A stretch of DNA of 64,000 nt. It comes from Escherichia coli (GTDB lineage Bacteria; Pseudomonadota; Gammaproteobacteria; Enterobacterales; Enterobacteriaceae). Position 1 is the stretch's first letter; each line of letters starts with the position of its first letter. The position numbers were made by a program. The DNA lies in the NCBI RefSeq assembly GCF_029227855.1, contig NZ_CP074356.1. The stretch is one strand, 5' to 3'. Below are positions 11,901-17,900 of the stretch, piece after piece.

Positions 11901-14900
11901 ATTATGCCGTGGAATTTTCCGTTATGGCAGGTGATGCGTGGCGCGGTTCCCATCATTCTTGCAGGTAACGGCTACTTACTTAAACATGCGCCGAATGTGA
12001 TGGGCTGTGCACAGCTCATTGCCCAGGTGTTTAAAGATGCGGGTATCCCACAAGGCGTATATGGCTGGCTGAATGCCGACAACGACGGCGTCAGTCAGAT
12101 GATTAAAGACTCGCGCATTGCTGCTGTCACGGTGACCGGAAGTGTTCGTGCGGGAGCGGCTATTGGCGCACAGGCTGGAGCGGCACTGAAAAAATGCGTA
12201 CTGGAACTGGGCGGTTCGGATCCATTTATTGTGCTTAACGATGCCGATCTGGAACTGGCGGTTAAAGCGGCGGTAGCCGGACGTTATCAGAATACCGGAC
12301 AGGTTTGTGCAGCGGCAAAACGCTTTATCATCGAAGAGGGAATTGCTTCGGCATTTACCGAACGTTTTGTGGCAGCTGCGGCAGCCTTGAAAATGGGCGA
12401 TCCCCGTGACGAAGAGAACACTCTCGGACCAATGGCTCGTTTTGATTTACGTGATGAGCTGCATCATCAGGTGGAGAAAACCCTGGCGCAGGGTGCGCGT
12501 TTGTTACTGGGCGGGGAAAAGATGGCTGGGGCAGGTAACTACTATCCGCCAACGGTTCTGGCGAATGTTACCCCAGAAATGACCGCGTTTCGGGAAGAAA
12601 TGTTTGGCCCCGTTGCGGCAATCACCATTGCGAAAGATGCAGAACATGCACTGGAACTGGCTAATGATAGCGAGTTCGGCCTTTCAGCGACCATTTTTAC
12701 CACTGACGAAACACAGGCCGGACAGATGGCGGCACGTCTGGAATGCGGTGGGGTGTTTATCAATGGTTATTGCGCCAGCGACGCGCGAGTGGCCTTTGGT
12801 GGCGTGAAAAAGAGTGGCTTTGGTCGTGAGCTTTCCCATTTCGGCTTACACGAATTCTGTAATATCCAGACGGTGTGGAAAGACCGGATCTGACGCTACA
12901 TATTCAGCTCTGATATACTCGCAGGTCTTTTCAGACCTGCGGTCCAGGAGTAGAAAGTGGCAGTCGCCATGGATAATGCAATTTTAGAAAACATCTTGCG
13001 GCAAGTGCGGCCGCTCATTGGTCAGGGTAAAGTCGCGAATTATATTCCGGCGCTGGCTACAGTAGACGGTTCCCGATTGGGTATTGCTATCTGTACCGTT
13101 GACGGACAGCTTTTTCAGGCCGGAGACGCGCAAGAACGTTTTTCCATTCAGTCTATTTCCAAAGTGCTGAGTCTCGTTGTCGCCATGCGTCATTATTCCG
13201 AAGAGGAAATCTGGCAACGCGTCGGCAAAGATCCGTCTGGATCACCGTTCAATTCTTTAGTGCAACTGGAAATGGAGCAGGGTATTCCGCGTAATCCGTT
13301 TATTAATGCCGGTGCGCTGGTGGTCTGCGATATGTTGCAAGGGCGATTAAGCGCTCCCCGGCAACGTATGCTGGAAGTCGTGCGCGGCTTAAGCGGTGTG
13401 TCTGATATTTCATACGATACGGTGGTAGCGCGTTCCGAATTTGAACATTCCGCGCGAAATGCGGCTATCGCCTGGCTGATGAAGTCGTTTGGCAATTTCC
13501 ATCATGATGTGACAACCGTTCTGCAAAACTACTTTCATTACTGCGCTCTGAAAATGAGCTGTGTAGAGCTGGCCCGGACGTTTGTCTTTCTGGCTAATCA
13601 GGGGAAAGCTATTCATATTGATGAACCTGTGGTGACGCCAATGCAGGCGCGGCAAATTAATGCGCTGATGGCGACCAGTGGTATGTACCAGAACGCGGGG
13701 GAGTTTGCCTGGCGGGTGGGACTACCGGCGAAATCTGGCGTTGGTGGCGGTATTGTGGCGATTGTTCCGCATGAAATGGCCATCGCAGTCTGGAGTCCGG
13801 AACTGGATGATGCTGGTAACTCGCTTGCGGGCATTGCTGTCCTTGAACAATTGACGAAACAACTAGGGCGTTCGGTTTATTAATGCAGTCTCTCGATCCA
13901 CTCTTCGCGCGTTTATCCCGTTCAAAATTTCGCTCTCGGTTTCGTTTGGGCATGAAAGAGCGTCAGTATTGTCTGGAGAAAGGCGCGCCAGTCATCGAAC
14001 AACATGCGGCGGATTTTGTCGCTAAACGTCTTGCTCCGGCATTACCGGCTAACGACGGTAAGCAAACCCCCATGCGCGGGCATCCGGTGTTTATCGCTCA
14101 GCACGCCACTGCAACCTGTTGTCGCGGTTGTCTGGCTAAGTGGCATAACATTCCGCAGGGTGTTTCGTTAAGCGAGGAACAACAACGTTATATCGTGGCG
14201 GTAATCTATCACTGGTTGATTATACAGATGAATCAGCCATGATAATTGCGGAAAACGATAAAATAGCATTCCCAGGATATCTTTATTTGCCGCCGCTGTC
14301 AGCGAACATGCTATCCTTTATAAGAATTTACTTATTACGTTGAGATAATTGCCACCCGCAATTGTATGGACAGATAATTAATGCATGTACAGCCCATTTC
14401 AACTTTCCGTTTGTTCCAGGAAGGTCATCTGCTACGTAATAGCATCGCTATTTTTGCGCTAACCACGCTGTTCTATTTTATTGGTGCAGAGTTACGGCTG
14501 GTTCACGAACTTTCTCTTTTCTGGCCGCTGAATGGCGTAATGGCGGGGGTGTTTGCCCGCTATGTCTGGCTTAATCGACTGCATTACTATGCGATCAGTT
14601 ATGTGGCAATGCTGGTTTATGATGCCATAACCACCGAATGGGGGCTGGTTTCACTGGCTATCAATTTCTCCAATATGATGTTTATTGTTACCGTCGCCTT
14701 ACTGGTCGCGCGGGATAAGCGTCTGGGGAAAAATAAGTACGAGCCAGTAAGTGCCTTACGGCTATTTAATTACTGTCTGATTGCCGCATTATTATGCGCT
14801 ATTGTCGGGGCGATTGGTTCGGTCAGTATTGATAGTCTGGATTTCTGGCCTTTGCTTGCCGACTGGTTCAGTGAGCAATTCTCAACGGGCGTGTTGATAG

Positions 14901-17900
14901 TGCCTTGTATGCTGACGTTGGCAATTCCTGGAGTGCTGCCGCGCTTTAAAGCAGAACAGATGATGCCCGCTATCGCGCTTATTGTGTCGGTTATTGCCTC
15001 GGTAGTCATTGGCGGAGCGGGGAGTCTGGCGTTCCCGCTGCCTGCATTAATCTGGTGTGCAGTGCGCTATACGCCGCAGGTAACATGTCTGTTGACCTTT
15101 GTCACCGGTGCGGTGGAAATCGTACTGGTGGCAAATTCGGTGATTGATATCTCGGTCGGTTCGCCATTCTCCATTCCAGAAATGTTCTCCGCACGTCTCG
15201 GTATTGCCACGATGGCGATATGCCCAATTATGGTTTCTTTTAGCGTGGCAGCGATCAATTCGCTAATGAAGCAAGTTGCGCTGCGAGCCGACTTTGATTT
15301 TCTGACTCAGGTTTACTCACGGTCCGGTCTTTATGAGGCGCTGAAAAGTCCATCGCTGAAACAGACACAACATCTGACTGTCATGCTGCTTGATATCGAC
15401 TATTTCAAAAGTATTAACGATAACTATGGACATGAATGTGGCGATAAAGTGTTAAGCGTGTTTGCAAGGCATATTCAGAAGATTGTCGGTGATAAGGGGC
15501 TGGTGGCACGAATGGGCGGCGAAGAATTTGCTGTTGCAGTGCCGTCGGTGAATCCTGTCGATGGTCTGCTAATGGCGGAAAAAATCCGTAAAGGCGTTGA
15601 ACTGCAACCGTTCACCTGGCAACAAAAAACGCTTTATCTCACGGTAAGTATTGGCGTCGGTAGTGGTCGCGCATCGTACCGAACGCTGACCGATGACTTT
15701 AATAAATTGATGGTCGAAGCCGATACGTGTCTGTATCGCTCGAAGAAAGATGGGCGCAACCGTACCAGCACTATGTGTTACGGTGAGGAAGTTGTCTGAC
15801 ATCTTTATTCATTCAGAGCGATTTAAATGCAATGTGTTCTACCACTTTATGATCCAAGAAAAGGCGTTTTTCCTCGATTAAACCATGATCCGCGCCACAC
15901 TTTTCTCATAAAACTGCTCATTAATCATCAGGAGTTGATCAAAACAGGGGTTCGGCGTATTAAAGTTTGCTAACCTGTCGTACCAATTCAAACAGGTTGT
16001 ATGACTAATCAGAAGGGAACCCATTGTGAAAACACTAAATCGTCGCGATTTTCCCGGTGCACAGTATCCAGAACGTATCATTCAGTTTGGTGAAGGTAAC
16101 TTCCTGCGCGCCTTTGTTGACTGGCAAATCGATCTCCTGAATGAGCACACCGATCTGAATTCTGGCGTGGTCGTTGTTCGTCCGATTGAAACTTCATTCC
16201 CGCCGTCACTGAGCACGCAGGATGGTCTGTATACCACCATTATCCGTGGCCTGAATGAGAAGGGTGAAGCGGTCAGCGACGCGCGTCTGATTCGCTCGGT
16301 TAATCGTGAAATCAGCGTCTACAGTGAATACGATGAATTCCTGAAACTGGCGCATAACCCGGAAATGCGCTTTGTTTTCTCTAACACCACCGAAGCGGGT
16401 ATCAGCTACCATGCGGGCGATAAATTCGATGACGCGCCAGCGGTAAGTTATCCGGCAAAACTGACCCGTCTGCTGTTCGAACGTTTTAGCCATTTCAACG
16501 GTGCGCTGGATAAAGGTTGGATCATCATCCCGTGTGAGTTGATCGACTACAATGGCGACGCGTTGCGTGAACTGGTGCTGCGCTATGCGCAAGAGTGGGC
16601 ACTACCAGAAGCATTTATTCAATGGCTGGATCAGGCTAACAGCTTCTGTTCTACGCTGGTGGACCGTATCGTTACCGGCTATCCGCGTGATGAAGTGGCT
16701 AAACTGGAAGAAGAACTGGGTTATCACGATGGTTTCCTCGACACCGCTGAACACTTTTACCTGTTTGTGATTCAGGGGCCGAAATCCTTAGCGACTGAGC
16801 TGTGCCTGGACAAATATCCACTCAACGTGCTGATTGTTGACGATATTAAACCGTACAAAGAACGCAAAGTGGCAATCCTCAACGGTGCGCACACCGCGCT
16901 GGTGCCGGTGGCGTTCCAGGCAGGGCTGGATACCGTAGGTGAAGCGATGAACGATGCTGAAATTTGCGCATTCGTTGAAAAAGCCATCTACGAAGAAATT
17001 ATTCCGGTACTGGATTTGCCACGCGATGAACTGGAATCTTTCGCTAGTGCAGTCACCGGACGTTTCCGTAACCCGTACATCAAACATCAGTTGCTGTCTA
17101 TCGCCCTCAACGGTATGACCAAGTTCCGCACCCGCATCCTGCCGCAACTGCTGGCAGGGCAGAAGGCAAACGGCACACTTCCGGCGCGCCTGACTTTCGC
17201 ATTAGCGGCATTGATTGCGTTTTATCGCGGTGAGCGTAATGGAGAAACATATCCGGTACAGGACGATGCACACTGGCTGGAACGTTATCAGCAACTCTGG
17301 AGCCAGCATCGTGACCGTGTTATCGGCACCCAGGAACTGGTAGCGATTGTTTTGGCAGAAAAAGACCACTGGGAGCAGGACCTGACGCAAGTGCCTGGTC
17401 TGGTCGAGCAGGTGGCTAATGACCTGGATGCGATTCTCGAAAAAGGAATGCGCGAAGCTGTACGTCCGTTGTGCTAATACTCTGAACCCGGTTTCGACCG
17501 GGTTTCTTATTTTACTATATTAGTTACAACATCCTATGTGCCTTTATCATTAACGGGTGCCATATGCCACACCTGTAAATGTTGTAAACTTGTAGGTAAT
17601 TTGTACGTAGCGTCTTGAGAATGTGATCGTAATCACGTTTAATAGGGCGACTTTTCCACGCCTGAAGATAACCATGATTGTTCGTCCACAACAACACTGG
17701 CTGCGCCGTATTTTTGTCTGGCACGGCTCAGTATTATCCAAGATATCCTCGCGCTTACTACTCAATTTTCTCTTTTCTATCGCTGTTATTTTCATGCTGC
17801 CCTGGTACACGCATTTGGGCATCAAATTCACCCTCGCACCGTTCAGCATTCTCGGTGTTGCCATCGCCATTTTTCTTGGTTTTCGTAATAATGCCGGGTA

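What the first reader, a model, noticed from the sequence alone, without database searches (positions are those of the whole stretch)
14381..15799. DgcF (YneF) reads as a 472-aa membrane-sensor diguanylate cyclase
The longest ORF includes ~300 aa of multi-pass membrane sequence in front of the GGDEF domain (ARMGGEEFAV). I recall K-12 annotations giving a shorter product (about 315 aa), so the start codon and sensor domain may be under-annotated. The upstream ATG at 14381 has only a weak RBS, so the true start is uncertain.
Basis: partly seen in the sequence, partly recalled or inferred. Interest (0 to 1): 0.3.

Follow-up and report, generated by a model that had tools for sequence, protein, structure and literature searches.

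The report
Full-length dgcF; K-12 copy is truncated
The 472-residue membrane-bound enzyme gene is real and is the normal, already described full-length form of E. coli dgcF; the shorter 315-residue version in laboratory strain K-12 comes from a 498-base deletion, not from a mis-called start codon.

Summary
The ORF at 14381..15799 (+) exists and encodes 472 aa. It has a ~300-aa multi-helix membrane domain followed by an intact GGDEF domain (Pfam E=2.4e-40, GGEEF motif). It is full-length dgcF (yneF), sitting in the conserved order glsB-yneG-dgcF-uxaB. RefSeq annotates the same 472-aa CDS in an identical strain, in O157:H7 and in E. coli B.

K-12-type genomes lack window 14316..14813. These 498 bp comprise 65 bp of upstream sequence, the start codon and the first 144 codons. 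The exact K-12 junction occurs in 1217 of 5426 complete E. coli genomes, and 4196 keep the segment. The deletion was published by Richter et al. 2014 and Sarenko et al. 2017.

ATG 14381 is the best-supported start. It is conserved in five genera, with an in-frame stop 2-3 codons upstream in four of them. Codons 9-144 show the same third-position substitution bias as the rest of the gene.

The parts
14381..15799 (+). Full-length dgcF (yneF) coding sequence, 472 codons plus the TGA stop
   Evidence: ORF listed. The same 1419-bp CDS is annotated in a 100% identical strain as WP_123055379.1, and also in O157:H7 and E. coli B. Orthologues of 472-482 aa exist in E. fergusonii, Citrobacter, Enterobacter and Lelliottia in the same gene order.
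14381..15286 (+). N-terminal polytopic membrane domain (aa 1-302): divergent MASE1-type sensor module. Predicted helices are 17-37, 49-60, 67-84, 89-114, 122-147, 155-179, 191-210, 213-229, 232-251 and 267-304, the last running on into the GGDEF domain.
   Evidence: AlphaFold models have pLDDT 88.9 and 84.1. The domain itself has no direct Pfam hit. However, 31 of 53 family members hit MASE1. P0202, for example, scores 41 bits against a cutoff of 29.8 and matches DgcF aa 32-300 at E=5.7e-19. Codon-position bias indicates purifying selection.
15287..15763 (+). GGDEF catalytic domain (aa 303-461)
15515..15529 (+). GGEEF active-site motif (aa 379-383). The position where an RxxD inhibitory site would lie (aa 370-373) reads GDKG, so no I-site is present.
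   Evidence: Sequence read. The motif is invariant in the orthologue and family alignments. Richter 2014 states 'intact A-site but no I-site'.
14316..14813 (.). The 498-bp segment absent from K-12-type genomes: 65 bp upstream of the gene plus the first 433 nt of the CDS. The junction is blunt, with no microhomology.
   Evidence: Junction mapped. The segment is present in 4196 of 5426 genomes, and the K-12 junction 60-mer is present in 1217 of 5426.
14852..14854 (+). TTG codon (Leu158 here) that serves as the annotated start of the 315-aa K-12 product
   Evidence: The translation of NC_000913.3 b1522 begins LLADWFSEQ, which corresponds to aa 158 onward.
14375..14377 (+). In-frame TAA stop two codons upstream of the ATG, which makes 14381 the first possible start of the ORF
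14345..14365 (.). Conserved dyad ATAATTGC-N5-GCAATTGT just upstream of the start: a candidate operator or promoter element. It lies inside the K-12 deletion.
   Evidence: In the five-genus DNA alignment the arms are conserved and the spacer varies. No function was tested.

Best explanation
Window 14381..15799 is the intact, ancestral form of dgcF (yneF). It encodes an inner-membrane diguanylate cyclase. A ~300-aa polytopic membrane module of the MASE1 type is joined, through one long continuous helix (aa 267-304), to a catalytically competent GGDEF domain. That domain has a GGEEF active site and no RxxD feedback site. As for other GGDEF enzymes, two copies must pair so that the two GGDEF domains can condense two GTP into c-di-GMP. 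The membrane module presumably controls that pairing in response to a signal that is not known (inferred). Translation most likely starts at ATG 14381. The 315-aa K-12 product is a relic. A 498-bp deletion (window 14316..14813) removed the upstream control region, the start codon and the first five membrane helices. It left an unexpressed remnant that annotators begin at an internal TTG.
For: The ORF and domains are shown. The deletion is mapped to the base. PGAP calls the K-12 copy a pseudogene missing its N-terminus, and MG1655 b1522 is 315 aa starting at TTG. In the population, 4196 genomes carry the segment and 1217 carry the K-12 junction, out of 5426.

Orthologues of 472-482 aa in five genera share the gene order glsB-yneG-dgcF. 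The ATG is invariant in all five genera, with an in-frame stop 2-3 codons upstream in four of them. The alternative start at TTG codon 11 is not conserved in Enterobacter or Lelliottia.

Codons 9-144 differ from E. fergusonii at codon positions 1/2/3 by 22/8/64, with 57 synonymous and 20 non-synonymous changed codons. This is the same pattern as in the rest of the gene. Residues F9, F12, L18, R19 and N20 are invariant across the five genera.

Published work agrees. The K-12 gene is 5'-truncated by a deletion, which caused start-codon misannotation and loss of expression in W3110, and the full-size gene shows weak, mainly RpoS-dependent expression (PMC4287979). DgcF protein is undetectable in K-12 (PMC5635695). 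Shigella DgcF raises c-di-GMP in a GG-dependent way (PMC11327459). The K-12 315-aa fragment makes c-di-GMP when over-expressed (PMC11757272). A CFT073 yneF deletion lowers biofilm and adherence and is rescued by the cyclase WspR (PMC3484386).
Against: No direct evidence for the translation start (ribosome profiling, N-terminal peptides) or for the transcription start was available. The Shine-Dalgarno sequence is weak. Codons 1-8 are not conserved at the protein level, so they do not by themselves show that they are translated. The promoter scan found no more sites than shuffled sequence gives, and its best hit would place the transcript start at or after the ATG. The sensed signal and the regulatory role of the membrane domain are inferred only. 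The N-domain itself does not reach any Pfam threshold.
Confidence: 0.93

Rival explanations
1. The gene is real, but translation starts downstream of 14381, for example at TTG codon 11 (14411). This would give a product of about 462 aa, and the first codons would be untranslated leader.
For: The ribosome-binding site before 14381 is weak. Codons 1-8 are almost entirely non-synonymous between genera and are disordered in the model, with pLDDT below 50. A sigma-70-like match (TTGCCA, 18 nt, GATAAT) ends 3 nt before the ATG and would start the transcript at or after it.
Against: The ATG is invariant in five genera, whereas TTG11 is replaced by CCG or CCT in Enterobacter and Lelliottia. F9 is invariant in the 11 orthologues aligned. 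Between codon 1 and the first membrane helix at aa 17, this window has no in-frame ATG, GTG or TTG other than TTG at codon 11. The promoter-like match is within chance expectation: 5 sites found against 3.5 +/- 2.0 in shuffles.
Confidence: 0.05
2. One reading: K-12 has the same DNA, and its annotation simply chose too late a start, so the sensor domain is under-annotated there.
For: The MG1655 reference does list a 315-aa product from an internal TTG. Richter 2014 also uses the term 'start codon misannotation'.
Against: K-12-type DNA lacks 498 bp, including the ATG and codons 1-144. In K-12 the reading frame upstream of the junction runs into non-coding sequence, with a stop 16 codons upstream and no start codon. 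No longer product can therefore be annotated there.
Confidence: 0.01
3. The full-length protein is a degenerate, non-catalytic GGDEF receptor or scaffold rather than an active cyclase.
For: Expression is very weak. Some Shigella phenotypes did not track measured c-di-GMP levels.
Against: GGEEF and the other conserved GGDEF residues are invariant or nearly so across the family: D338, D340, N346, D355, R377, K455 and R459. The Shigella orthologue and the K-12 fragment both raise c-di-GMP in a motif-dependent manner.
Confidence: 0.03

Closest known systems
DgcF/YneF of non-K-12 E. coli and Shigella (full-size form described by Richter et al. 2014 for O104:H4, 55989 and O157:H7)
   Same: The locus (glsB-yneG-dgcF-uxaB), the length (472 aa) and the start are the same. 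The sequence is 99% identical to the main E. coli cluster P0008, which has 9487 member sequences. The architecture is the same, and there is likewise no I-site.
   Different: Only allelic differences. This window's allele has, for example, Cys465 where the K-12 and main-cluster sequences have Arg. Only 41 of 5416 records are at least 99% identical over the 1.8-kb query.
E. coli K-12 DgcF (b1522, NP_416039.1, 315 aa)
   Same: Identical downstream of aa 158 apart from a few substitutions, with the same GGDEF domain.
   Different: The K-12 copy lacks 498 bp: the upstream region, the ATG and helices 1-5. Its protein is not detectably expressed.
MASE1-domain signalling proteins (Pfam PF05231; in E. 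coli UhpB, PdeF/YfgF, DgcE/YegE, PdeA/YfeA)
   Same: A polytopic N-terminal membrane module of about 300 aa precedes the output domain. Relatives at about 30% identity match the MASE1 profile end to end. The same module is also found on hybrid histidine kinases (P0186, P0255).
   Different: DgcF itself gives no MASE1 hit even at E<=10. A profile of its family against the MASE1 region of UhpB is not significant, with E=0.33.
S-components of ECF (energy-coupling factor) vitamin transporters (RibU, FolT, ThiT, BioY, BtuM, PanT, CbiM) and the S-component-like 5TMR-LYT receptor domains (Partipilo & Slotboom 2024)

Membership tests
GGDEF diguanylate cyclases (PF00990) | Profile match above the curated threshold | tested here: met
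   138.4 bits against a cutoff of 23.8, covering profile positions 1-161 of 161. TIGR00254 scores 130 bits against 37.4.
GGDEF diguanylate cyclases (PF00990) | Intact GG(D/E)EF active-site motif and conserved metal- and GTP-binding residues | tested here: met
   GGEEF at aa 379-383. D338, D340, N346, D355, R377, K455 and R459 are invariant or nearly so in the alignments. Assigning these residues to catalytic roles rests on established knowledge of PleD-type cyclases.
GGDEF diguanylate cyclases (PF00990) | Fold of the catalytic domain | tested here: met
   [not shown]
GGDEF diguanylate cyclases (PF00990) | Synthesis of c-di-GMP from GTP | not testable with these tools
   Published for the Shigella orthologue and for the K-12 315-aa fragment. 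Not measured for this allele.
dgcF/yneF orthologue group | Same chromosomal position (glsB-yneG-dgcF-uxaB) and near-identical sequence | tested here: met
   The sequence is 99% identical to E. coli cluster P0008.
MASE1 membrane sensor domain (PF05231) | Profile match above the gathering score | tested here: not met
   aa 1-303 give no MASE1 hit even at E<=10.
MASE1 membrane sensor domain (PF05231) | Homology through intermediate sequences | tested here: met
   The DgcF N-domain matches P0202 at E=5.7e-19 over aa 32-300. P0202 matches MASE1 at 41.0 bits against a cutoff of 29.8, over profile positions 3-285 of 299. 31 of 53 family members hit MASE1 at E<=0.01.
MASE1 membrane sensor domain (PF05231) | Direct similarity to a reference member (E. 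coli UhpB) | tested here: inconclusive
   hhalign of the family N-profile against UhpB aa 1-295 gave E=0.33, with a short colinear match only. UhpB was used as a single sequence, which limits sensitivity.
ECF-transporter S-component fold | Structural superposition on solved S-components | tested here: inconclusive
   [not shown]
ECF-transporter S-component fold | Ligand pocket, and the helix-1 AxxxA motif for docking on an ECF module | not tested
   The aligned residues were not available from the tool output.

The most novel reading that the evidence does not exclude
The MASE1-type membrane module of DgcF, and by extension MASE1 domains generally, may be built around the six-helix fold of ECF-transporter S-components. 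If so, it may bind a small, vitamin-like ligand within the membrane, making DgcF a 'transceptor'-style cyclase. The paper linking S-components to receptors (PMC11109136) covers 5TMR-LYT domains and does not mention MASE1. No solved structure matches the module by sequence. A second, smaller point: the dgcF 5' deletion is described in the literature as specific to K-12, yet it is carried with the identical junction by 22% of complete E. coli genomes, including isolates from humans, animals and water.
Probability: 0.25. Interest if true: 0.45.

Novelty: already known. Interest (0 to 1): 0.1.

Why it matters
It matters little beyond housekeeping. Work on c-di-GMP signalling that relies on K-12 studies a strain that has lost one cyclase, and the 315-aa entry still in the MG1655 reference is a relic, not a protein of normal E. 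coli. Most complete E. coli genomes (77%) carry the full gene. Its orthologues affect acid resistance, invasion, adherence and biofilm in Shigella and uropathogenic E. coli. The signal sensed by the membrane domain is still unknown, and the S-component-like fold is a possible route to it.

Tried and rejected
1. A profile comparison of the full family alignment with UhpB aligned only the histidine-kinase ATPase part contributed by two hybrid-kinase members, so it was uninformative. The repeat with an N-domain-only profile was not significant (E=0.33).

2. A test for an internal duplication of the membrane domain (aa 9-150 against 151-300, hhalign) was not significant (E=0.085).

3. The promoter and terminator scan found 5 promoter-like sites against 3.5 +/- 2.0 in shuffles, and no terminator. 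No transcription start can be inferred from it.

4. An Rfam scan of 14000..16200 at E<=0.1 found nothing.

5. A search for inverted repeats of at least 7 bases in 14240..14400 found none. In this window the dyad is 6 perfect bases, or 8 with one mismatch.

6. The AlphaFold-database fold library was not available, so the model could not be compared with predicted MASE1 proteins.

7. Povolotsky & Hengge 2016 (J Bacteriol), which probably tabulates dgcF alleles across strains, is not in the held library.

8. A profile search of PDB sequences with the N-domain gave only one chance hit (E=0.73).

9. A Foldseek search of the PDB with the N-domain model gave nothing significant.
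Full report
**Observation.** The window holds a 472-codon ORF at 14381..15799 on the + strand that starts with ATG. An in-frame TAA at 14375..14377 lies two codons upstream, so this ATG is the first possible start. Pfam GGDEF covers aa 303-461 (E=2.4e-40, 138 bits against a cutoff of 23.8), and NCBIfam TIGR00254 agrees. The quoted ARMGGEEFAV is present, with GGEEF at nt 15515..15529. The first ~300 aa are strongly hydrophobic. AlphaFold predicts a bundle of ten to eleven helices between aa 17 and 304, the last running straight into the GGDEF domain (mean pLDDT 88.9, pTM 0.80).

**Identity.** The flanking genes are glsB and yneG upstream and uxaB downstream. A 1.8-kb query matches 5414 of 5426 complete E. 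coli genomes at this locus. One strain is 100% identical, and RefSeq annotates exactly this CDS there as a 472-aa 'sensor domain-containing diguanylate cyclase'. O157:H7 and E. coli B carry the same 1419-bp CDS. This is therefore dgcF (yneF) in its full-length form, and it is not under-annotated in strains of this type.

**Why K-12 is shorter.** The MG1655 reference lists dgcF b1522 as 948 bp, or 315 aa. Its translation begins LLADWF, so it starts at a TTG equivalent to Leu158 here, window 14852. But K-12-type DNA does not contain the upstream part of the gene. An alignment and exact anchoring show that window 14316..14813 (498 bp) is missing, with a blunt junction GCTATC|TTGG. The lost segment comprises 65 bp of upstream sequence, the ATG and the first 433 nt of coding sequence. 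That amounts to the control region and the first five predicted helices. PGAP marks the K-12-type copy as a pseudogene 'missing N-terminus'.

**Published record of the deletion.** Richter et al. [quoted passage not shown] They describe full-size YneF as having a ~300-aa hydrophobic N-domain, an intact A-site and no I-site, with weak, mainly RpoS-dependent expression (PMC4287979). Sarenko et al. 2017 used the 55989 allele for this reason and could not detect DgcF protein in K-12 (PMC5635695).

**How common is the deletion?** The 498-bp segment is found in 4196 of 5426 genomes. A 60-base probe across the K-12 junction, at an E-value limit that excludes half-matches, hits 1217 genomes, 1212 of them at 99% identity or more. 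Besides laboratory K-12 derivatives, these include isolates from humans, chickens, dogs, swine, pigeons and river water. The two classes add up to 5413 of the 5414 genomes that have the locus. The deletion is therefore a widespread natural allele with a single junction, not a K-12 peculiarity as one search's source words it. I could not check whether Povolotsky & Hengge 2016 already tabulated this.

**Start codon.** Orthologues of 472-482 aa in E. fergusonii, Citrobacter amalonaticus, the Enterobacter cloacae complex and Lelliottia begin at the aligned Met and lie in the same gene order. At the DNA level the ATG is invariant in all five genera. It is preceded by an in-frame stop 2-3 codons upstream in four of them. 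The only other candidate before the first helix, TTG at codon 11, is CCG or CCT in Enterobacter and Lelliottia. F9, F12, L18, R19 and N20 are invariant.

Codons 9-144, the part missing from K-12, differ from E. fergusonii by 22/8/64 substitutions at codon positions 1/2/3, with 57 synonymous and 20 non-synonymous changed codons. The other three genera show similar ratios, which match the rest of the gene. This region is therefore translated and under purifying selection. Codons 1-8 are variable and disordered in the model, so they do not add evidence by themselves. I put ATG 14381 at about 0.9 and a downstream start at about 0.05. Direct start-site data would settle it.

Activity is supported by published work on near-identical proteins. 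Shigella DgcF raises c-di-GMP, and its GG-to-AA mutant does not. The K-12 315-aa fragment over-expressed from a plasmid also does so, and an E224A change (E381 in full-length numbering) abolishes it. Deleting yneF in CFT073 lowers biofilm in glycerol and lowers adherence, and the cyclase WspR rescues both.

The domains, motifs, selection, deletion and published activity are shown. Two steps are inferred: that the membrane domain controls dimerisation of the catalytic domains, and what signal it senses.

**The N-terminal domain.** It gives no Pfam hit, even at E<=10. An exhaustive search with aa 1-303 found 408 clusters at E<=0.001, mostly proteins of 460-490 aa with the same architecture. Of 53 aligned members, 31 hit Pfam MASE1 at E<=0.01, mostly below the gathering score. 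P0202 is above it (41.0 bits against 29.8, profile positions 3-285 of 299), and it matches DgcF aa 32-300 at E=5.7e-19. Two members carry the module on hybrid histidine kinases, as expected of a portable sensor domain. A direct profile comparison with the MASE1 region of UhpB was not significant. I therefore call it a divergent MASE1-type domain, supported through intermediates but not directly.

**Verdict.** The ORF is real and ordinary. It is the known full-length dgcF, and the K-12 discrepancy is a known deletion. Interest is low.

Noticed in passing
window 14316-14813: The 'K-12' dgcF 5' deletion, with its identical junction, is present in 1217 of 5426 complete E. coli genomes (22%). These include isolates from humans, chickens, dogs, swine, pigeons and river water, so it is a common natural allele rather than a laboratory-strain peculiarity. 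4196 genomes keep the segment.
   Followed up: partly
window 14345-14365: A dyad, ATAATTGC-N5-GCAATTGT, lies 16-36 nt upstream of the dgcF ATG. Its arms are conserved and its spacer varies across Escherichia, Citrobacter, Enterobacter and Lelliottia. It could be an operator, part of a promoter (its TTGCCA doubles as a -35-like hexamer) or a leader hairpin. It lies inside the K-12 deletion.
   Followed up: partly
window 14366-14377: A conserved ATG five codons upstream of the dgcF start and in frame with it opens a three-codon mini-ORF (ATG GAC AGA TAA). The mini-ORF stops 3 nt before the dgcF ATG. It is closed by a stop in four of five genera but runs into dgcF in E. fergusonii, where it would add five residues. 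The conserved ATGGA may equally be the weak Shine-Dalgarno sequence.
   Followed up: no
[not shown]
   Followed up: partly
L003 2780-4170 (strain LI60C3); proteins P0007 and P0009: Other rearrangements hit this gene. In LI60C3 a deletion joins the 5' 795 nt of dgcF to a truncated tam, removing uxaB and yneE. Database proteins of 460-514 aa carry the DgcF N-domain fused to a HipA domain. This suggests larger deletions reaching the nearby hipBA locus.
   Followed up: no
L006 4060-5025; L007 4130-6158: In Enterobacter and Lelliottia, one or two further diguanylate cyclase genes (GAF-GGDEF; MASE2-GGDEF) and an acetyltransferase gene sit between dgcF and uxaB. E. coli has nothing there.
   Followed up: no
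window 14321-14334: TAAGAATTTACTTA, conserved in Escherichia and Citrobacter, resembles the RcsAB-box consensus as I recall it (TaAGaatatTCctA, 11 of 14 matches). The resemblance is from memory only and was not tested. The sequence lies inside the K-12 deletion.
   Followed up: no
window 14100-15900: This window's allele is uncommon. Only 41 of 5416 records are at least 99% identical over the 1.8-kb query, and in the sampled ranking the second listed record is 98.4% identical. The protein has Cys465 where the K-12 and main-cluster sequences have Arg.
   Followed up: no
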